NCBI GenBank assembly: GCA_950097015.1
Contig: CATNEN010000001.1
Coordinates: 1,736,001 to 1,800,000 of the forward strand
Direction of reading: 5' to 3'
Length of the DNA stretch: 64,000 nt
Origin: Macrostomum hystrix
Lineage: Eukaryota > Animalia > Platyhelminthes
The translations under genes were made by a program, and so were the position numbers. Below the pieces are notes generated by a model. The model saw only the letters and a program-made list of their open reading frames with translations. It was not told the origin of the DNA and did not search any database. Below, piece after piece: positions 9,901 to 57,600 of this stretch (within the stretch, counting starts at the first letter, position 1; the number at the start of each line of letters is the position of its first letter).

Positions 9901-12900
9901 ATCAGAATGCTGTTGAGCCTGTCACACCACGCACATGGCGGCTACACCTCATTGAGCTACAGATGTCACTCGGATACTGGCTATCCGGCTGATACGGCCT
10001 CCGATTGTCTGCATAGATTCGGACCTAGGCCCGACTGTGTTAGGCTGGCTAGTACCGGTCATTATGGAGATGGTGAGATGTGAATGAACAGATAGATAGA
10101 ACAGGCTGGGATGTAAAGAGTCTGGTAGATAGAACAGGCAGGCATGTGAAGAGTCTGGTAGACAGAACAGGCAGAGGTGTGAAGAGTCTGGTAGACAGAA
10201 CAGACAGGGATGTGAAGAGTCTGGTAGATAGAACAGGCAGAGGTATGAAGAGTCTGGTAGACAGAACAGACAGGGATGTGAAGAGTCTGGTAGATAGAAC
10301 AGGCAGGGATGTGAAGAGTCTGGTAGATAGAACAGGTAGGCATGTGAAGAGTCTGGTAGACAGAACAGACAGGGATGTGAAGAGTCTGGTAGATAGAACA
10401 GGCAGGGATGTGAAGAGTCTGGTAGATAGAACAGGTAGGCATGTGAAGAGTCTGGTAGACAGAACAGGCAGGGATGTGAAGAGTCTGGTAGATAGAACAG
10501 GCAGGGATGTGAAGAGTCTGGTAGACAGAACAGAGCAGGGATGTGAAGAGTCTGGTAGATAGAACAGGCAGGGATGTGAAGAGTCTGGTAGATAGAACAG
10601 GCAGGGATTTGAAGAGTCTGGTAGATAGAACAGGCAGTGATGTGAAGAGTCTGGTAGATAGAACAGACAGGGATGTGAAGAGTCTGGTAGACAGAACAGA
10701 CAGGGATGTGAAGAGTCTGGTAGATAGAACAGACAGGGATGTGAAGAGTCTGGTAGACAGAACAGGTAAGGCTATGAAGCTAGGTCCAACAAGACTAGAG
10801 TAGTGTTTTTCTAATTGTTTGGCTGCTCAGTCTTAAAAGATATTTCTTTTCTGCTATGAATCATCCCACTTGCTCATTGATCGAACTAATTTCTGAGCAT
10901 CCTAAACTGTTGAATATACATAGCTATATACACGCTTAGTCCAAGAAGCGGAACATGCGAATGTGTGAGATTACGTTTTCAGCTCCAATGCACCAGTAAA
11001 ACTAATTATTCTAATCAGTGAAGCGGTTATGTGTGGTCTATGAGTAGTCTGTACTTGGTTGTAACTAAAAACTTTTTATTGCTCTTCGTAGATACTAGCA
11101 AGAGTTAAGCCTAATTGTAGCTAACTGACATAGCTCAGAATTTAATTAAATTTAATATTTATAGGAAGAAAACTATTTCCAGTCTAATAAACTCCAATTA
11201 AGAATATTTAACGTAACCGAAGACGGAAGTTACTGCCGACTGGTAGTCTAGTAAAATTAAACTGATTTCGCTACTTTTAAAGCCCTTTCGCCACATGTTT
11301 TTGTGTGTTTTTTGCCTGAAAAGCAATGATGATAAAGAGAAAATAAAAAACATTGACGACAAAAAAGGTTTGAGCTAAGAAAAAGGACATACATTTAAAA
11401 AGGTCTGCATAGGTTACATAAAATGGATCTAGATTACAGAAATCGAAAAGAATATAATATCGATAGTGGTTAGAAAAAAATCGATAATGAATTAAGGCAA
11501 TCGATAATGAATCAAAGCGATCGATAATGAATCAAGGCAATCGATAATGAATCAAGGCAATCGATAATGAATCAAGGCGATCGATAATGAATTAAGGCAA
11601 TCGATAATGAATCAAGGCAATCGATAATGAATTAAGGCAATCGATAATGAATCAAGGTAATCGATAATAAATCAAGGCAATCGATAATAAATCAAGGCGA
11701 TCGATAATGAATTAAGGCAATCGATAATGAATCAAGGCATTCGATAATGAATTAAGGCAATCGATAATGAATCAAGGCGATCAATAATGAATCAAGGCGA
11801 TCGATAATGAATTAAGGCAATCGATAATAAATCAAGGCAATTGATAATTAATCATGACAATCGATAATGAATCATGACAATCGATAATAAATCAAGGCAA
11901 TCGATAATGAATTAAGGCAATCGATAATGAATCAAGGCGATCGATAATGAATTAAGGCAATCGATAATGAATCATGCCAATCGATAATGAATCATGGCAA
12001 TCGATATTGAATCATGACAATCGATAATAAATCAAGAAAGTCGCTAATGGATCATGACAATCGATAATGAATCAAAACAATCGATAATGAATCAAAACAA
12101 TCGATAATTAATCAAAACAATCGATAATGAATCAAGAAAAGTGATAATGAATCATGAAAATAGATAATGAATCATGACAATCGATAATGAATCAAGAAAA
12201 TCGATAACAATTTAAGAAATTCGGTAATGATGTAATAATATCCATTCAAATTTAAGAAAATCTATAAAGATTAGAGAAAAGTTTTAATCGATAACGAATA
12301 CAGACTGTAAAACGATCATAAAATCTATAATTTTTACGATTACAGAAAATCGATAGTCGATAACAATTAAAGAATGTCAATAAAGAAAACGAATAAAGAA
12401 TAAAAATCAACAAGTGCGCACTGCACCTACCTGTACATTCAACAAAATTATTTAAGAAACCGCTTTAGATTGATATATAATAAAATATAATTGGCAAGCT
12501 AAGCAATGTATCCTTATCCTAAGTCTATAAAATTTCAGTTGTAACTACACCAAGTAACTACAACACTTGTATTTGCCATAATAATGATAATAATAATTGA
12601 TTACACCTGCCCCAATTGGGTCAGATGTGCAGCCGACAGCACAGCCGCAGCTAATGCGCGGCGCATCTGAAGGCTGCGTACAGCTGTTCAGTCCATGGAC
12701 TGGGGGGACGCCACACCCACCTTCAATTATCCCAGCTGATGCTGGTACCCATTTAACAGCTGGGTGAACTGAAGCAATGCAGAGTTAAGTGTCTTGCTAA
12801 AGGACACAAATTGTTCAGGGGAGTCGGGAATCGAACCCCCGACCTTCAAGTCGTGAGTCCGACGCCCTAACCACTAGGCTACAACCTCTGTGAATGCGTA

Positions 12901-27964: not shown

Positions 27965-28067
27965 CCTTCTTTTCCAATTCCTCTATTTTTCAAATCCCAT
28001 TTTCGAGTGAAACTGATTTTATTCGATAATAAAAGAGTCACTATTTCATTTTAAAATCCTCTGAATC

Positions 28068-28102
28068 ATGATGCTACCACCGGTTGGGTACTCGAGTTGC
28101 AC

Positions 28103-28151
<49 letters not shown>

Positions 28152-29339
28152 GAGCAGTCAGCGGCAGCAGCAGCCGTTGCAGCGCACCATCTCAACAACA
28201 TGATGCAAATAGGCGAGGATGAAGAACCCGACGAGGAAGCCGGACCTGATATTGACGACGAAGACGATCAAGAAGACATTGGCGACTACGCTGATGACGA
28301 GGAGTTGGACGGAGCGAACGAGGCTGCTTCGACTAGCACAGCTCAGCAGCAGCAGCAGCAGCAGCAGTCGGGATCGCAAAAAAAGCGAAGTCACCATGTG
28401 AAGCCGCCCTACAGCTACATCGCGCTGATCACAATGGCCATCCTACAGTCAGGCAGCAGGAAACTCACGCTTAGCGGCATCTGCGAGTTCATCATGAACC
28501 GCTTTCCGTATTATAAGGAGAGGTGAGTCACTGCCTGGGGGCGGATAAACGTTTGAAGTGTCGGATGAAGATTTTAAGGGAGCGAATGAAGGTTTGAAGG
28601 GGGCGGATGAAGGGTTAAGAAGGGGGGCGGATGAAGGGGGCGGATGAAGGGGGCGGATGAAGGGGGCGGATGAAGGGGTGGATGAAGGATTAAGAAGGGG
28701 GCGGATGAAGAGGGCGGATGAAGGGTTAAGAAAGGCGGCGGATGAAGGGTTAAGAAGGGGGCGGATGAAGGGTTAAGAACGGGGCGGATGAACTGTTAAC
28801 AAGGGGGGATGAAGGGTTAAGAAGGGGGCGGATGAATGGGGCGGATGAAGGGTTAAGAAGGGCGCATGAAGGGTTAAGAAAGGGGCGGATGAAGGGTTAA
28901 GAAGGGAGCGGATGAAGGGTTAAGAAGGGAGCGGATGAAGGGTTAAGAAGGGAGCGGATGAAGGGTTAAGAAGGGAGCGGATGAAGGGTTAAGAAGGGAG
29001 CGGATGAAGGGTTAAGAAGGGAGCGGATGAGGGGTTGAGAAGGGGGCGGATGAAGGGCTAAGTATCAAGGCCCTTGAGCATAGATTGAGAAACTATTGTT
29101 ATTAATTCCATAAAACGAAACATTACTATTCTGATACTAATGAGACTGAAGAAAAACACAATAAACATGACTGGAATATTCAATGAAACTCAGATTTTTT
29201 CATAAACAAAGCATTCTGAAATATAGATAAATTAGAGTTATAGAAATTGAAGCAACACTGATTTATGCCAATGTTTATACACAATATTGCGGGATGCGAA
29301 TAAGCGCGGTTCGTGCCATTTTAACAATTTAGAAAACAT

Positions 29340-29384
<45 letters not shown>

Positions 29385-30957
29385 GTGTTTGCATGGATCT
29401 GTTGCTATGTGGCTCTGTTTTTGGCCGCATAGATAGTACGAGCTAAGAAGCCAAAGAAGCCTGCCTAGCCGTATTAGTTTTGCAAGGAAGAAAATATATA
29501 ATCACTCGGTTGCGGTCAGTAGGAACAACCGCGGTATTCTTAATGCCAGTGGGTGGTCCGGGGCCATATAATAAAGGCGTTTGTGAATTTGACTGGCACA
29601 ACCGAATTCACAACGAAAATTCTTCCAATTCTTCTTGTAGAATAATATTCTTTGAATTTTAACCTTCTTGGCAAACTCTAAACAATGGCACTCTCTTTAT
29701 TGACTACATTTTCTGTTTTTATGTTTTCCAGTTAAATTCAACATATATTTCAGAATACTTCTATTGTATAGGCATTGTTAATTTATTATGCCCGCCAGAT
29801 TTTCCTCTGATTTCTAAAGAAAACTAAAATACTCATTCTCCCCCCTTTCGTTCTACCTCTATCATTCTCCCCTCTCATTCTCGCCTCCCATTCTTCCCTC
29901 TCATTGTCCCCTCTCATTGTCCCCTCTCATTCTCCCTCTCTCATTCTTCCCTCTCATTGTCCCCTCTCATTGTCCCCTCTCATTGTCCCCTCTCATTCTC
30001 CCCTCTCATTCTCCCCTCTCATTCTCCCCTCTCATTGTCCCCTCTCATTCTCCCCTCTCATTCTCCCCTCTCATTCTCCCCTCTCATTCTTCCTTCTCAT
30101 TCTCCTCCTATCATTATCCCCTCTCATTGTCCGCTCTCATTCTCCCCTCCCATTCTCCCATCTCATTCTCCCCCTCTCATTCTCCACTCTAACTATTCAG
30201 TCTCTAGTCTATGGCAATCCCAACCAATGATCTCCATCCATGGGCAAATTCTCGCAGATTCCCAGCCTGGCAGAACAGCATCCGTCACAACCTGTCCCTG
30301 AACGACTGCTTTGTGAAGATTCCGCGCGAGCCAGGAAACCCCGGCAAGGGCAACTACTGGACCCTGGATCCCCAGTCCGAGGACATGTTCGACAATGGCA
30401 GCTTCCTGCGTAGGCGGAAGCGTTACAAGCGGCAGTCCATGGTGCCCGACCTGTTCGTCGGTCCGCCGGGTTTCTTAGGGCCGCACTTCAATGCCCATCT
30501 GGCCGCAGCTCACCAGCATCATCACCAGCATCATCACCAGCATCATCACCAGGCTCCGCCGCCGCCGCCACCACAGATGCCGTTTCATCTGCCTCCACCG
30601 TTTGGCCTGATGCCTCCTCCGCCTCCTCCGCCGTCATCGAAGTCGCTAGCTTCACCTAAGACTGCGTCGACTAGCAAGACTTTTACCATAGACAGTTTGA
30701 TCAGCAAATCGGACAGCTCCGCCGCCGCCGCCATCGCCGCCGCTCCTGTCGTCTCGTCGGCGGCTTCAGTTGCCGCCGCGGCCGCCGCCGCCGCCGCCGC
30801 AGCAGCTGGCTATCCGCCATTGATTCGCCTGCCACAGCATCAGCAGCAGCCGCCGCTACCGCCGCTGCCACCGCATCCTCAGTTTGATCTGGCCATCTAT
30901 CAGAAACTCGTGGCAGCTTCTGCCGGTCTGCTACCGCCGACCTCTTGGCTTGGCTGA
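28068..30957 (+). CDS. FoxD: Forkhead transcription factor, FoxD class, 2 exons: 28068-28522, 30258-30957
   Basis: [18 protein letters not shown]...[20 protein letters not shown]|[58 protein letters not shown] is the FoxD-type forkhead domain. Acidic N-terminal patch; eh1 motif FTIDSLI (30682-30702); phase-2 GT-AG intron 28523-30257. Confidence 0.96.
28537..29060. repeat. About 23-bp G-rich minisatellite (ggatgaagggttaagaagggagc)n, FoxD intron
   Basis: Tandem array next to the donor site. Confidence 0.9.
29340..29381. repeat. (CAG)14 microsatellite, FoxD intron
   Basis: Directly visible. Confidence 0.9.
29833..30190. repeat. 13-bp pyrimidine-rich repeat (attctcccctctc)n, FoxD intron
   Basis: Tandem array near the acceptor site. 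Confidence 0.9.
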
Positions 30958-33934: not shown

Positions 33935-34330
33935 AATTCAATGGGCAGTGTCCTCTCTCCTCTCTCCCGCTCTCTCTCTCCCTCTCTCCCTCTCTCTCTC
34001 AGGCCAGCACCGGCGTCTCGTACGACCGAGTCAGTGCCACGGAGTTGAGTGAGTATGGATTGAGTTGCGGGGCGCTGCCGAATCGATTACGATATGTTGA
34101 GATTGAAAGCTGGATTTGAACAAGCGCCTATAGCCTAATGGCTAGAGCGCTAGGCTAGACTCTACTGATGAGCTCCAATAAGAGCGAAACGCGTCTGGAG
34201 TTGCCTTGGTTCGAATCCTGATTTCAATTTTTTCGATACATATCGGAATCGATTCCAACATTAGATTTTTGAAATTCAATGGGCAGTGTCCTCTCTCCTC
34301 TCTCCCGCTCTCTCTCTCCCTCTCTCCCTC
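33935..34330 (+). mobile_element. Retrozyme-like / SINE-like element: 338-bp unit plus 58-bp terminal redundancy, carrying Pol III boxes and a hammerhead ribozyme
   Basis: 33935-33992 is identical to 34273-34330. Interior has A box TAGCCTAATGG (34131-34141), B box GGTTCGAATCC (34208-34218), a T6 run (34228-34233), a hammerhead, and nested inverted repeats. Confidence 0.7.
34152..34206 (+). ncRNA. Type I hammerhead ribozyme
   Basis: Stem I aggc-ua-gacucua (34152-34164) pairs with uggaguu-gccu (34196-34206). Core CUGAUGA 34165-34171; stem II gcuc/gagc with loop caauaa; GAAA 34186-34189; minimal palindromic stem III acgcgu; GUC cleavage triplet 34193-34195. All conserved core nucleotides are present. 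Confidence 0.88.
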
Positions 34331-35227
34331 CCTCTCTCACCCTCTGTCACCCTCTGTCACCCTCTCTCACCCTCTCTCACCATCTGTCACCCTCTCTCAC
34401 CCTCTGTCACACTCTCTCACCCTGTCACTCTCTGTCACTCTCCGTCACCCACTCTCACCCTCTCAGGCCCTCTCTCACCCTCCCAGCCTTTTAATTTGTT
34501 ACCAGAACACTGAAGCAGATTAACCGGTTTTTCAACGACACTAAACCGAGTGACTAAAATCGTCTTATATGTATCTGATGAGCTAGTTAGTAGAAGCTTG
34601 TAAATACTATAGTCCCATAAATTATCCTACCAATCCTTAACCATTAGGCAAATTATTAATTAAACCTATGACAAACTGACGCACCTGGCTAATCGTTTAT
34701 ACCGCCACCTGTATTTGCAGCTTCTCTACGCTTCGTGTGTAGCCGTTTAGAGTTGCACGGATACCATTTTGTGTGTCTGTCTGTCTGTTTTCATTGAAAC
34801 TTACTGATGAGAATAACCGATGCCGTCGTCTGTATATACATATACGCTGGGCTGTTAAAACAAAAACTAGGCTTGCTTAAGTTTGCCAGATACGCAGCCT
34901 TGCCTGTGTGTGTGTGTGTTTATGAATTCTGAACAAAACAATCGTTATTTTGGCCGGTACTAACACGCGCTATAGAAGAAGAAGAAGATAGTTGATGAGG
35001 CGTCAGCCGATAGCGCTAGGCTCAGGTAATGGCATTAACAGACTATAATGACGCGGCGTTGCAGTATTATAGAACTTCTGTGTATAGTGTTTTAACAGAT
35101 TGTGTGGCGTTAACATTTTTCAACAACGCCCGTAAAAGCAAGCAACTTACAATGCGCTAGACAAACAATTTTATTCCATGGGATTGCATGGGTTTTGCGG
35201 GGGAAAAATACTCATATGAAATCATCG

Positions 35228-46820: not shown

Positions 46821-49582
46821 ATGCTTTGGAGACCGCAGCAGAAGAAGCTGATTTACACTGCATTGCACCAGGCTGTGCTGGATTGTCGCACTGACCAGGT
46901 TCGCCTGCTGGTGGAACGCTGCGGCGCCGATGTTGATAGTCGAGAGGTGAGATTGACTACCATGACAGGGGCACTTGGTGCTTGGCTCTCCTGAGCACTT
47001 TCTAAGATATGGACTGAGGCTAGCCTGAAGATTTTCTAGGAAATGGATTGAGGCTTCCCTGAAATTTTCTAGGAAATGGGTTGAGGCTTCCCTGAAATTT
47101 TCTAGGAAATGGGTTGAGGCTTCCCTGAAATTTTCTAGGAAATGGATTAAGGTTTTCCTGGAGATTTTCTAGGAAATCGATTAAGGCTTCTCTGAAGATT
47201 TTCTAGGAAATGGATTAAGGTTTCCCTGAAGATTTTCTAGGAAATGGATTGAGGTTTCTATGAAGATTTTCTAGGAAATGGATTGAGGTTTCTCTGAAGA
47301 TTTTCTAGGAAATGGATTGAGGTTTCTCTGAAGATTTTCTAGGAAATGGGTTGAGGCTTCCCTGAAATTTTCTAGGAAATGGATTAAGGTTTCCCTGGAG
47401 ATTTTCTAGGAAATGGAAATGGATTGAGGCTTCCCTGAAATTTTCTAGGAAATGGATTAAGGTTTTCTTGGAGATTTTCTAGGAAATTGATTGAGGCTAC
47501 CCTAAAGATTTTCTAGGAAATTGGTTAATGCTAGCCTAAGGATTTTCTAGGAAATGGAAATGGCTTGAGGCTTCCCTGAAGATTTTCTAGGAAATGGATT
47601 GAGGCTTCCCTGAAGATTTTCTAGGAAATTGATTGAGGCTTCCCTGAAGATTTTCTAGGAAATGGATTAAGGCTTCCCTGAAATTTTCTAGAAAATGGAA
47701 ATGGATTGAGGCTTCCCTGAAATTTTCTAGGAAATTAATTTAGGTTTTCCTGGAGATTTTCTAGGAAATGAATTTAGGTTTTCCTGGAGATTTTCTAGGA
47801 AATTGATTGAGGCTACCCTAAAGATTTTCTAGGAAATTGGTTAATGCTAGCCTGAAGATTTTCTAGGAAATTGATTGAGGCTTCCCTGAAATTTTCTAGG
47901 ATTTTACTGAGGCTCTCCTTACTTTCCCTGAATAATTTTGTCAGGTATTCGGCCGGACGCCGCTCATGCTCTGCTGCATGCTCGACTGTTTGCCAGTTGC
48001 CATGGCAATAGCCAAAACGCTGTTAAAAGCCAAACCGGATCTGGAGCTCAAGGACAATTTGGGTCGCACCGCTCTAGCCTACGCTTGTATCTATGGCAGG
48101 GAGGCACTCGTCATTCACCTGGCCAGAACTCAGGTGAGTTCGGGATGACAAATCGTTACCAATGGTCGCAGGTAGAATAAACTGAATTTCCACCTGAAAA
48201 CTGAAAACCCAACGCAGGTGCTTGATCCAACTGAGCCAGACAATGACGGCTGCACCCCGTTGCATCACATCGCCGTGCAGGGCAACTCGCGAATCGCCTG
48301 CATGCTAGTCGACCTCGCACTGGAGAACCGCGCCACAGTGGACTGCCGCAATCGCCTGGGCCTGACGCCGCTAATGCTTGCCTGTCAGAGCGGCAATTTT
48401 CGGGTCGGTCTCTACCTGCTACTGAACGGTTGCGCCTCCGCTTACCTGCGCGACAACGCCTGCTTCATGAGCGCCCTAGAATGGCTCGAGAAGGGTGGTC
48501 ATGGCGCAGCCGACAAACGCGGCTCCGCCAAGGCGGACGAAGTTCGCCGGGTGTACACGGCCGGCGCTGTGCGACCACGCGTACCCGAGAATCGCCAGCA
48601 TCAGCACTGGCACCGTCATCAGCGCCAGGAGTTCACCTACCGCCAGCTGCACAGCGCCCGGCACTCTTCGACGTCGGCTTCCACCGGAAGGCCCGCCAAC
48701 GGAGGCGGTCCAGCGGACGACGCTCTTCCGCGTCTACTGTCGACAACGCCGCCAGCGACTGCGATGTCAACGTTGACAACGCCGCCAGCGGCATTGGACA
48801 CGGGCCGTCGACCGTCGGTCGACGATCCACTCTGGTCGGAGCGGACCAGACTGCGACCGCGGCCAGCCACGGTCAGCGCCTTCCGCGTCCAATTCATCGA
48901 CGACGACGACGTGGACGAAGTTCTAATTCACGCCGCTGTCAAAGACGACGAGAATCGTCCTCCAGGCATCAGCGGCAAGGTTGTCACCGTTGACGTTGAC
49001 AACCTGACGGAGGCAGCCGCCAGACGGCTTTTGGCCCGACGCCTGCGAGCCCAAGCTGCTCAGTACAGCTACCTCGGTGGCACTGCTGGGGGCGCGAACT
49101 CGCGACTCTCCTCAGCAGCTTCGATCACGTCGGCAGGCGAAGGTTGCGGCCAGCAGCGCCCAGCTACTGCAGCCAACTCAACCGCCTCTGGAAACAGCGA
49201 GGTGGTCAACGCATGCCGGCTGCTGCAAATGCTGCACGATGCCAGAGCTGCGCCGCTTCCAGCCAAACGACTGACCCCTGCGGCCACCGCGGCCCTCGCT
49301 GCCGCCGCCTCCCGGTCTGGCTCGGCGTCGGCGTCGCTGGCCGGCTCCAGGCGTCAGAGCCAAACCACGGGCCCTTCAACATCTGCCATTGTGACTGTGG
49401 CAGCCGCAGCAGCAGCTGCCGCAGCCGCCGCCGCATTCTCAAACGCTGGCAAGTCGACGCTGGCGCCGGCCGTTGTCAGGGACACTCCGAGCCCCAGGGA
49501 GCGGCGCAGCGTCACCTTCAAAGAGCCCGCAACGGCTGCTGCTGCTGCTGCTGCGGCTCTGTCTCAGTCGTTGAGAAAGTGA
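46821..49582 (+). CDS. Ankyrin-repeat protein (ANKRD34/ANKRD63-like architecture: N-terminal ankyrins, long disordered tail), 3 exons: 46821-46946, 47945-48133, 48218-49582
   Basis: Five ankyrin repeats: TALHQAV...GADVDSRE|VFGRTPLMLCC, GRTALAYAC, GCTPLHHIA, GLTPLMLAC. Both introns are phase-0 GT-AG. The start ATG is tentative because an acceptor-like ttag precedes it. Confidence 0.88.
47000..47905. repeat. 32-34-bp minisatellite (ttttctaggaaatggattgaggcttccctgaaga)n, intronic
   Basis: Tandem array filling the intron. Confidence 0.95.
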
Positions 49583-54647: not shown

Positions 54648-57600
54648 CTAGAGCGACGGATCGCCGAACCCAACCTCGGACTGCAGGCTGCGCAATTCGT
54701 TGATTAGCAGTTCGTCTTCCAGGCCAACCTTGACAGCGTATTTGTATGTCTGTTCAGCTTCCAGGCGGCGGCCAGTGCGCAGACAGACTAGGCTGAGATA
54801 GGCCCAAACCTCCGGGTCGCGATTGTTCAGCAGGTTAGCTTCGGCCAGAGCGTCCTCGGCTTCCTGCAGATCGCCGAGCCGATAACAGGCAATGCCGACA
54901 CCAAGCCAGGACACGGCGGAAGGCGACCGTTTGCAGGCTAGCAGGAAGGTCTCCCTGGCCAGTCGGTAATCGCCAAGCTGCAGGTGTATGCTGGCCAGAC
55001 GCAGGATGACCGGATGCGGCTCGTCCGGATCGGTGGTCAGCGCCAGGACACGCTGATAACAGTCTCGGGCAGCCTGCACGTAGCCGACGAGGTACTTGAG
55101 ATGACCCATCAGGGCCCAGCCGTTGGCATCTGTTGGCGCCAATTGAAGCAGATCGTTAAGCGACACTTCGGCCGTTTCAAACTGCCTTTGCTGCATAGCT
55201 AGTCTAGCGTGAGCCAAGAAATAGTCCGGCGTCAGATCGCGTCCGGCGCCGCGCAGATGAGCGACTTCGTGAGCCAGGGCGCGCTCTGCGTAGGCCAGGG
55301 CCGAGTTAGCGATCAGGAACTTGGCGGCTCGCATGAACACCGACTGGCTGGGCGTTGGCGGTCTGGCCTCGGCTGCCGCTGCGGCTGCCGCCTCGGCTGC
55401 GGCTGCTGTGCCTGCTTCGTCAGATGAAGGTGCCGGTGTGCCAGAGGATGAGTTCTTGCCGGCTGGTTAAGGAAGGTAGGTTGCGTTGTACGTAAATTAG
55501 ATTAATTATATATATTGTGTGCCATTAAGAAGGACCAGAAGGTGATTGTCCAATGTTCTGAAGGACCAGAAGGTGATTGTCCGATGTTCTGAAGGACCAG
55601 AAGGTGATTGTCCGATGTTCTGAAGGACCAGAGGGTGATTGTCCAATGTTCTGAAGGACCAGAAGGTGATTGTCCAATGTTCTGAAGGACCAGAAGGTGA
55701 TTGTCCAATGTTCTGAAGGACCAGAAAGTGATTGTCCAATGTTCTGAAGGACCAGAAGGTGATTGTCCAATGTTCTGAAGGACCAGAAGGTGATTGTCCG
55801 ATGTTCTGAAGGACCAGAAGGTGATTGTCCGATGTTCTGAAGGACCAGAGGGTGATTGTCCAATGTTCTGAAGGACCAGAAGGTGATTGTCCAATGTTCT
55901 GAAGGACCAGAAAGTGATTGTCCAATGTTCTGAAGGACCAGAAGATAATTGAGCGAAGTTCTGAAGGACCAGAAGATAATTGAGCGAAGTTCTGAAGGAC
56001 CAGAAGGTGATTGTCCGATGTTCTGAAGGACCAGAAGGTGATTGTCCGATGTTCTGAAGGACCATAGGGTGATTGTCCAATGTTCTGAAGGACCAGAAGG
56101 TGATTGTCCAATGTTCTGAAGGACCAGAAGGTGATTGTCCAATGTTCTGAAGGACCAGAAAGTGATTGTCCAATGTTCTGAAGGACCAGAAGGTGATTGT
56201 CCAATGTTCTGAAGGACCAGAAGGTGATTGTCCGATGTTCTGAAGGACCAGAAGGTGATTGTCCGATGTTCTGAAGGACCAGAAGGTGATTGTCCAATGT
56301 TCTGAAGGACCAGAAAGTGATTGTCCAATGTTCTGAAGGACCAGAAGATAATTGAGCGAAGTTCTGAAGGACCAGAAGATAATTGAGCGAAGTTCTGAAG
56401 GACCAGAAGATAATTGAGCGAAGTTCTGAAGGACCAGAAGGTGATTGTCCGATGTTCTGAAGGACCAGAGGGTGATTGTCCAATGTTCTGAAGGACCAGA
56501 AGGTGATTGTCCAATGTTCTGAAGGACCAGAAGGTGATTGTCCAATGTTCTGAAGGACCAGAAGGTGATTGTCCAATGTTCTGAAGGACCAGAAGGTGAT
56601 TGTCCAATGTTCTGAAGGACCAGAAGGTGATTGTCCAATGTTCTGAAGGACCAGAAGATAATTGAGCGAAGTTCTGAAGGACCAGAAGGTAATTATGAAA
56701 ACTCCGAAGGATTAGAAGACACTTTACAAGCCACTGCTGCAAGCAAGAAAGCGATCATTTCGGCAAACACTTAAAGCGGCTAATTAGTTTTAAAACTACT
56801 CGGAGGCCGTAGCTACAGCAAAAAGGGCATAGAAGCACACATTGTTAATTTACTTTTTTAATGGCTAAAATGCTTTAAGCAATAAAGCACACAAGTGTTA
56901 AAATTGATAACAACAGCTATACAAAAAACGATTTAATAAAAACAGTTGAAGTGCTGAACGCAGCGTTTTAGATAGTTTTCTTACTTCAAAAATGTTAAAA
57001 TGAACGCACAAAAACCAATAAACCAATTAAAAGTAGATACCCAAAGTTGAATTGTCACACAAAATTTAAGTTGTGTCATCGGACAAAATGCTAGTCTAGC
57101 ATTAGTTATTCGGCTGTTTTTTATTTCTCTAATACCTTTGACGCTAGGCGTCTGTTTTCGTGTGTTGACCTGCGACTTTGACACCTGGCTTGTCTTTGCC
57201 AGCTTATTGTCGCTGTTCTGCAGCTGCTCGTTGCCGGCGGCCTCCACCTGAGGCGGCTGCGGCCCGGGCTGCGACGGGGAGTCGCCAGCCGCGGCTCCCA
57301 GCAAGTCGGCAGTTTTCTCTGCGATTTTTTTCAAGCGAGCCCGAAAATCGGTTTATTTAAGAGACTTAATGTCGTTTGCGGGCATCTAGTGAGTCATAGT
57401 GACTGTGCAATACAGAGGTGAAACTCGTGATATAGTAAGCTTTATAAGAAAGTTAATGTAAAAAACTGTTTAAACGTCAAGTTAATAACATGCAATTAAT
57501 CATAACTCAAAAACAGTGCATACGAGTAAACAAGGTACGTAGGTAGAATGATACGAGCGAATGTAACTTTAAGACATCATGATACCCACATCACTCTACA

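What the first reader, a model, noticed from the sequence alone, without database searches (positions are those of the whole stretch)
33935..34330. 338-bp terminally redundant unit folding into a rod: candidate retrozyme or circular-RNA retroelement inserted in a satellite
Seen: 58 bp at 33935-33992 recur exactly at 34273-34330 (period 338). Nested complementary blocks surround the ribozyme: 34112-34121 with 34209-34218, 34102-34108 with 34222-34228, 34080-34096 with 34239-34255 (16/17), and 34070-34079 with 34282-34291. There is also a local hairpin at 34123-34151. One pairing arm (ggcagtgtcc) lies within the duplicated block, so the duplication appears to belong to the element (about 1.2 monomers) rather than being a target-site duplication. 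Established: metazoan non-LTR retrozymes are hammerhead-containing monomers of a few hundred nt that form structured circular RNAs and integrate as partial tandem copies. Inference: this is a rolling-circle reverse-transcription product of a 338-nt circle that carries its own Pol III promoter.
Basis: partly seen in the sequence, partly recalled or inferred. Interest (0 to 1): 0.82.

Follow-up and report, generated by a model that had tools for sequence, protein, structure and literature searches.

The report
Hammerhead retrozyme splitting a tRNA promoter
This is a 1.2-unit copy of a 338-base non-coding repeat in an animal genome, in which a predicted self-cutting hammerhead RNA sits between the two halves of a tRNA-type promoter motif; it is likely a jumping element copied from a small RNA circle or multimer, a known kind of element with an unusual layout.

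Summary
The 58-bp repeat is exact (period 338) and the rod core folds far better than shuffles (z -9.0). A type I hammerhead with an intact core and a 2-bp palindromic helix III lies at 34152-34206. Removing 33935-34330 restores the 10-bp satellite in phase. Contigs of six runs of the same organism hold near-identical sequence. One run has 50 contigs with scattered ends, and four contigs run 25-36 nt past the unit junction unbranched. This fits a young non-LTR retrozyme family, and this copy is 1.17 units with one ribozyme. Layout: consensus A and B boxes flank the hammerhead, which sits where a tRNA anticodon loop would be; the schistosome precedent is described as promoter followed by hammerhead. 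Not shown: multimers, cleavage, any RNA, a circle, or the mobilising enzyme; no genome was available. Verdict: new variant of a known kind.

The parts
33935..34330 (+). Whole insertion, 396 bp = 1.17 units of 338 bp (right end may lie at 34340)
   Evidence: Excising to 34330 or 34340 restores the period-10 satellite (9 and 10 of 10 matches; the other 18 end points tested gave 7 or fewer)
33935..33992 (+). First copy of the 58-bp redundant block (18 complex nt + 40 CT-rich nt)
34273..34330 (+). Second copy of the 58-bp block; 8 more matching nt after one mismatch (34332-34339)
33953..34000 (+). CT-rich block of the unit; predicted to pair with purine-rich 34041-34071 in the circle; holds the right junction in its second copy
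   Evidence: TRF; circular fold
34070..34121 (+). Left arm of the rod
34209..34291 (+). Right arm of the rod (overlaps box B and the T runs)
34124..34156 (+). tRNA-like 5' half (D arm and 5' strand of an anticodon-type stem)
   Evidence: 34131-34156 matches the window's tRNA-derived SINE head at 19 of 26, all 7 differences transitions; 7 of 300 shuffled 26-mers did as well somewhere in the window
34131..34141 (+). Pol III box A, full match to consensus
   Evidence: consensus from PMC10137851
34152..34206 (+). Type I hammerhead, HH9-like; helix I 34158-34164/34196-34202, helix II 34172-34175/34182-34185, helix III 2 bp within a palindromic hexamer 34189-34194; predicted cut after 34195
34208..34218 (+). 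Pol III box B, full match to consensus, 66 nt after box A
34228..34233 (+). T6 run, predicted Pol III terminator (a T5 run follows at 34266-34270)
   Evidence: T6-7 serves as terminator in PMC10137851
33328..33934 (.). Host 10-bp CT-rich satellite, left of the insertion
34331..34482 (.). Same satellite resuming in phase, right of the insertion

Best explanation
This is a 1.17-unit insertion of a 338-base hammerhead-bearing repeat that is likely a young non-autonomous retroelement of the non-LTR retrozyme (Sm-alpha-like) kind, likely made by reverse transcription running once round an RNA circle, or along an uncut multimer, and about 58 bases further. Shown by sequence: one intact hammerhead core, terminal redundancy in unit register, an in-phase insertion in a satellite, near-identical sequence in other runs. 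Inferred: source loci with two or more units are read through by a host polymerase; paired hammerheads cut at 34195/34196; a host ligase closes the monomer; a LINE or Penelope-type enzyme copies it into a nicked CT-rich target. The ribozyme is predicted to be nearly silent as a monomer because helix III does not form. This locus has one ribozyme, so it cannot release a unit-length RNA by itself. The A and B boxes are a tRNA-derived relic or drive only a short RNA of about 110 nt that ends at T6.
For: HH9 match with all core bases. In the circle helices I and II form with probability 0.95 or more except one closing pair at 0.61, and helix III with 0.0; this is the short palindromic helix III said to need a dimer (PMC4209133). 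Unit size 338 bp, longest ATG-started frame 35-39 codons, GC 0.49, within the 150-450 bp and <50% GC described in PMC7229834. Run X5: 50 contigs, two of them identical to this copy at depth 2,647 and 4,264, covering to 34289. Its 6 displayed loose ends fall at 34063, 34081, 34181, 34188, 34192 (5' side) and 34234 (3' side). Contigs of X1, X2, X3 and X6 extend 25, 30, 36 and 31 nt upstream of 34001 unbranched. X1 and X3 pass 34302, where this locus alone would break a 31-mer contig. X3's contig is 375 nt, longer than one unit. The host is an animal (Fox, ankyrin and CFAP70 genes).
Against: No full dimer or multimer was seen and no genome was held. The overhanging letters upstream of 34001 were not displayed, and the tool masked the CT block. 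X3's 375 nt exceeds the 368 nt of a perfect 338-nt cycle, so that run's unit or CT block differs. Contig depth is not copy number, no single-copy baseline was laid, and the DNA/RNA labels of the runs are guesses. The hammerhead scores below Rfam's gathering threshold. In a published test 8 of 9 Xenopus retrozyme dimers did not cleave. Reviews state that metazoan retrozymes seem to lack promoters (PMC7761336), which these boxes do not fit.
Confidence: 0.68

Rival explanations
1. A linear tRNA-derived SINE with a CT tail; the upstream 58 bp is a local duplication or a remnant of an earlier copy.
For: Consensus A and B boxes. The right end lies in a microsatellite-like block. Five of the 6 displayed X5 loose ends are 5' ends, as 5' truncation would give, and 3' ends in the CT block were masked.
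Against: Box A lies 130 nt inside the unit counted from 34001, not at its start. T6 follows box B by 9 nt, whereas the window's ordinary SINE has no run of 4 T in 289 nt. Four contigs run past 34001 unbranched, and one X5 variant has CT letters directly before the left arm.
Confidence: 0.1
2. A DNA satellite unit spread at DNA level (unequal exchange or extrachromosomal DNA circles); the ribozyme is a passenger.
For: The window is full of tandem repeats (74 TRF rows). A DNA circle would also give permuted ends and terminal redundancy. The minus strand of the core also folds well (z -6.2).
Against: Over the whole insertion only the ribozyme strand folds better than shuffles (z -4.3 against -0.09). 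The catalytic core is intact. The left junction has no homology to the target.
Confidence: 0.1
3. A fragment of the terminal repeat of an autonomous Penelope-like element, present as a partial tandem.
For: Penelope repeats carry type I hammerheads, form partial tandems and in some clades prefer microsatellites (PMC4209133, PMC8557442). 24 of 57 Xenopus retrozyme families matched known elements, 21 of those 22 elements being Penelope-like.
Against: Helices I and II have canonical sizes rather than the minimal Penelope form. Only 0.01 of what was laid in X5 runs on into unlike sequence. No reverse transcriptase domain in the 17 of 85 window ORFs scanned.
Confidence: 0.08
4. An endogenised viroid-like RNA that replicates RNA to RNA.
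For: Rod-like circular fold and 338-nt size.
Against: No hammerhead core on the minus strand. tRNA-type DNA promoter boxes. Near-identical sequence in runs labelled as probable DNA.
Confidence: 0.04

Closest known systems
Metazoan non-LTR retrozymes (Cervera and de la Pena 2020, PMC7229834; abstract, Results parts 1-2 of 3 and Discussion read)
   Same: Type I hammerhead, 338-bp non-coding unit, GC under 50%, highly paired circular fold with the hammerhead helices free, no LTR structure. Helix III resembles the weak amphibian type that works as a dimer.
   Different: Consensus Pol III boxes in the unit, which a review says retrozymes seem to lack (PMC7761336, passages). Tandem arrays and circular RNA are not shown here.
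Schistosome Sm-alpha / Sj-alpha hammerhead repeats (passages of PMC6765202, PMC2770079, PMC4918200, PMC2576457, PMC8490949; the original 1998 paper was not held)
   Same: About 335-bp unit with a type I hammerhead and tRNA-derived A and B boxes. Earlier scan notes call the host a likely flatworm; I did not confirm that.
   Different: Sm-alpha is described as a promoter or full tRNA followed by the hammerhead. Here the hammerhead lies between box A and box B, the cut separates the boxes, the tRNA is not intact, and T6 follows box B. Sequence homology to Sm-alpha was not tested.
Penelope-like elements and their terminal repeats (PMC4209133, PMC8557442, PMC11167929, passages; bioRxiv 10.64898/2026.07.22.740005, parts 1-3 of 5)
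   Same: Type I hammerhead, partial tandem layout, insertion in simple repeats; the proposed mobilisers of retrozymes.
   Different: No ORF, canonical rather than minimal hammerhead, no inverted end copy at this locus.
tRNA-derived SINEs, and Helenus/Ajax TRIMs (PMC10886601, passages)
   Same: tRNA-derived A and B boxes in a non-autonomous element.
   Different: Boxes are internal and followed at once by a terminator-like run; termini are not TG..CA; no polypurine tract on + (longest purine run 5 nt).

Membership tests
Non-LTR retrozyme | Type I hammerhead with intact core | tested here: met
   HH9 38.7 bits, E 2.3e-8, below gathering 52; all core bases present
Non-LTR retrozyme | Non-coding unit of 150-450 bp, GC under 50% | tested here: met
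   338 bp, GC 0.494, longest ATG frame 35-39 codons
Non-LTR retrozyme | Tandem organisation with a hammerhead in two or more units somewhere in the genome | tested here: inconclusive
   This locus is 1.17 units with one hammerhead. Four contigs pass the unit junction but no dimer was seen; no genome
Non-LTR retrozyme | No LTR, primer binding site or polypurine tract | tested here: met
   Termini not TG..CA, longest + strand purine run 5 nt; a primer binding site was not searched against host tRNAs
Non-LTR retrozyme | Highly self-paired monomer | tested here: met
   69% paired as a circle, z -4.9; PMC4918200 quotes above 70%
Non-LTR retrozyme | Self-cleavage and circular RNA in vivo | not testable with these tools
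   All 15 listed runs are contigs and none is on record as RNA
Non-LTR retrozyme | Long target-site duplication when present | tested here: inconclusive
   Insertion is in phase in a 10-bp satellite, so a duplication of 0, 10 or 20 bp cannot be told apart
Sm-alpha-like repeat | tRNA-derived A and B boxes in a hammerhead repeat | tested here: met
   Both boxes match consensus; 3 of 100,000 dinucleotide shuffles gave an A..B pair
Sm-alpha-like repeat | Full tRNA or whole promoter placed before the hammerhead | tested here: not met
   Hammerhead lies between the boxes; no tRNA by ARAGORN default or Rfam at E up to 5
tRNA-derived SINE | Promoter at the 5' end and no terminator before the tail | tested here: not met
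   Box A 130 nt inside; T6 and T5 after box B
Penelope-like element | RT plus GIY-YIG ORF joined to the repeat | tested here: inconclusive
   None at this locus or in the 17 of 85 ORFs scanned; genome not available

The most novel reading that the evidence does not exclude
A retrozyme whose hammerhead is grafted into the anticodon loop of a tRNA gene, so that each genomic copy is also a Pol III mini-gene: box A, ribozyme, box B, T6. The 110-nt transcript would supply the partner hammerhead in trans that the weak helix III needs, switching on cleavage of unit-length precursors. Because the cut separates the boxes, only copies made from a ligated circle or a multimer would keep a working promoter.
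Probability: 0.2. Interest if true: 0.75.

Novelty: new variant of a known kind. Interest (0 to 1): 0.45.

Why it matters
How animal retrozymes are transcribed, and how weak hammerheads that need a partner are switched on, are open questions in the papers read. This family has consensus Pol III boxes around the ribozyme and a terminator-like run right behind, which gives a sharp test: a 110-nt RNA and its 74 + 38 nt pieces, against a 338-nt circle. The 1.17-unit insertion with ends far from the cut site is also a clean record of copying from a circle or multimer. As a class, hammerhead repeats with tRNA boxes are already known from schistosomes, so the novelty is the layout.

Tried and rejected
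Own genome: none held, so no census of copies. Second copy in the window: none by blastn. Viral contigs, hammerhead-plus-box-B pattern: 0 matches. Metagenome contigs: 4 matches, none homologous to the element by blastn. Sequencing runs: no RNA holder listed; X9 and X10 are only guessed to be RNA, so they were not used as evidence of expression. X12 had no contig on 34001-34062, which may be a false blank. No joint going back was listed; the CT block was masked. The X5 depth peak at 34187-34214 was not used, because overlapping contigs are summed. G-U asymmetry: 7 of 8 non-Watson-Crick positions in the chosen helices are G-U, but those helices were picked from the + strand fold; in the two ungapped inverted repeats, only 1 of 4 mismatches is G-U (read by eye), so it was dropped. 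Relaxed ARAGORN gave only calls in other registers. The two-core cofold output could not be interpreted; only the palindrome and its -7.5 kcal/mol duplex are cited. Priming by base pairing to the CT block (8-nt match at the right junction) stays a guess: one Penelope enzyme starts on RNA not homologous to the cut DNA (PMC11167929). Host taxon: best named CFAP70 relatives are 50-58% identical across many phyla and the atlas search was uninformative, so the host is 'animal' only. Earlier-findings searches by sequence and by place with words gave nothing.

Full report
Observation. The 58-bp repeat at 33935-33992 and 34273-34330 is exact, period 338, with no extension to the left. It continues for 8 nt past one mismatch (66 of 67). 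Forty of the 58 bases are CT-rich; the first 18 are complex and occur only at these two places in the window. The insertion folds better than shuffles on + (z -4.32) but not on - (z -0.09). The core 34070-34291 folds well on both strands (z -9.04 and -6.21), as an inverted repeat would. As a 338-nt circle the unit reaches -121.7 kcal/mol (z -4.9) with 69% paired, and the CT block pairs with the purine-rich 34041-34079 to extend the rod.

Ribozyme. Rfam HH9 matches 34147-34218 at 38.7 bits, E 2.3e-8, below the gathering score of 52; at gathering thresholds the window has no match. The core bases are all present and the predicted cut is after 34195. In the circle helices I and II form with probability 0.95 or more (one closing pair 0.61) and helix III does not form. 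Helix III is two pairs inside a palindromic hexamer, the form that PMC4209133 (passages) says cleaves poorly alone and well as a dimer. There is no core on the minus strand.

Promoter anatomy. Box A (34131-34141) and box B (34208-34218) both match the consensus given in PMC10137851 (passages; test). Three of 100,000 dinucleotide shuffles of the unit gave such a pair, and the only other pair in the window is a tRNA-like SINE head at 12881-12827 on - (Rfam tRNA 28.9 bits, E 4.6e-4). The element's 34131-34156 matches that head at 19 of 26 with all 7 differences transitions (7 of 300 shuffles did as well), and 34208-34224 at 13 of 17. In that register 34150-34154 is the 5' strand of the anticodon stem and pairs 4 of 5 with 34204-34208. 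The hammerhead therefore occupies the anticodon-loop position and the cut falls between the boxes. The halves are not a recognisable tRNA. Box spacing is 66 nt, against 33 in the SINE and 32-43 in most human tRNA genes. A T6 run begins 9 nt after box B and a T5 run follows; the SINE has no run of four T in 289 nt. By the usual Pol III rule the boxes would give about 110 nt (34122-34233 is 112 nt; the start is inferred), not a 338-nt unit.

Insertion. Removing 33935-34330 (or to 34340) restores the 10-bp satellite in phase; 18 other end points did worse. A target duplication cannot be resolved in a satellite. Both ends lie far from the cut site and the ribozyme is whole in the middle, so the template was not a cut-to-cut linear monomer. 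It was a ligated circle, an uncut multimer, or a DNA array (inference).

Other copies. No genome was held. Fifteen runs hold part of the unit, 8 of them half or more of the words, all 8 of organism A from two studies; none is on record as RNA. I laid 8 of the 15, six of organism A. X5 gave 50 contigs, 35 at 99% or more; two identical to this copy have depth 2,647 and 4,264, and cover reaches 34289, including the 18 complex bases of the repeat. Depth is not copy number and no single-copy baseline was laid. Eight of 12 loose-end rows were shown and 6 more at repeats were dropped by the tool. The six X5 rows are 5' ends at 34063, 34081, 34181, 34188, 34192 and a 3' end at 34234. The 34081 row is a variant with CT letters directly before the left arm, and the 34181 row has a CT-rich flank (read by eye). 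Single contigs of X1, X2, X3 and X6 extend 25, 30, 36 and 31 nt upstream of 34001. If colinear, X1 spans 33976-34307 and X3 33965-34339. A 31-mer graph of this locus alone breaks at 33963 and 34302, and a perfect cycle gives 368 nt. So these contigs look like collapsed units whose upstream side is shared, but the letters were not shown and X3's 375 nt does not fit a perfect 338-nt cycle. Organism C has a 157-nt contig over 34077-34233 with one difference; organism B has the hammerhead (5 differences, unlike flanks) and 34220-34289 (5 differences). X12 gave nothing on the stretch laid.

Host. Forkhead, ankyrin and TPR frames (17 of 85 ORFs scanned) and CFAP70 relatives at 50-58% across animal phyla show an animal. 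Two earlier scan notes call it a likely flatworm; I did not confirm this.

Mechanism. Best reading (0.68): a young non-LTR retrozyme. Loci with two or more units are read through, paired hammerheads cut, a host ligase closes the monomer, and a LINE or Penelope enzyme copies round the circle into a CT-rich target, here for 1.17 turns. These steps follow the model of PMC7229834 (Results parts 1-2 of 3 and Discussion) and are inferred here. This copy has one ribozyme and cannot release a unit alone. Rivals are a SINE with a local duplication (0.10), DNA-level satellite spread (0.10), a Penelope terminal repeat (0.08) and a viroid-like RNA (0.04).

Comparison and novelty. Hammerhead repeats with tRNA boxes are known from schistosomes, described as a promoter or full tRNA followed by the hammerhead (passages of PMC6765202; PMC4918200; PMC2576457; PMC2770079; PMC8490949). 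The 1998 original was not held, so the exact box positions in Sm-alpha rest on these summaries. A review says metazoan retrozymes seem to lack promoters (PMC7761336, passages). A 2026 preprint ties retrozymes to Penelope repeats and found cleavage in 1 of 9 dimers (parts 1-3 of 5). Eight literature searches (listings and abstract starts only) showed no title or abstract start describing a hammerhead between boxes A and B; supplements were not seen. Earlier scan notes report promoter-then-hammerhead repeats in other genomes (unchecked), so the combination recurs. What differs here is the nested order and the terminator-like run. Verdict: new variant of a known kind, interest 0.45.

Noticed in passing
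window 12600-12888, - strand: A tRNA-derived SINE-like element: head matches Rfam tRNA at 28.9 bits, consensus A and B boxes, no T4 run in 289 nt.
   Followed up: partly
run X5, loose end at window 34192: One copy of the element starts just before the cut site, directly behind letters that match the box B end of that SINE head (by eye): a SINE-retrozyme chimera or nested insertion.
   Followed up: no
run X5, window 34181-34192: Three of five displayed 5' loose ends fall within 15 nt before the predicted cut site; possibly a pause of reverse transcription after the ligation junction. Few rows, four hidden.
   Followed up: no
L001 300-401, L002 960-1075, L004 1001-1070 (- strand): Metagenome contigs with a hammerhead-like core shortly before a tRNA T-loop motif; L001 folds like a type III hammerhead. 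Rfam did not call them at E 0.01. Possibly hammerheads inside tRNA-like genes of microbes or phages. L003 is an ordinary tRNA overlap.
   Followed up: partly
L004 1865-1930, - strand: Twister-P1-like match, 45.6 bits, below gathering 67.2, about 800 nt from the hammerhead-like motif.
   Followed up: no
window 28065-30957, + strand: Forkhead gene split in two exons (Pfam hits); the element lies about 3 kb downstream.
   Followed up: partly
window 54651-55466, - strand; 48176-49582, + strand: C-terminal part of a CFAP70 homologue and an ankyrin-repeat frame.
   Followed up: partly
window 1-64000: Very dense in short-period tandem arrays (74 TRF rows), most with units of 10-45 bp.
   Followed up: no
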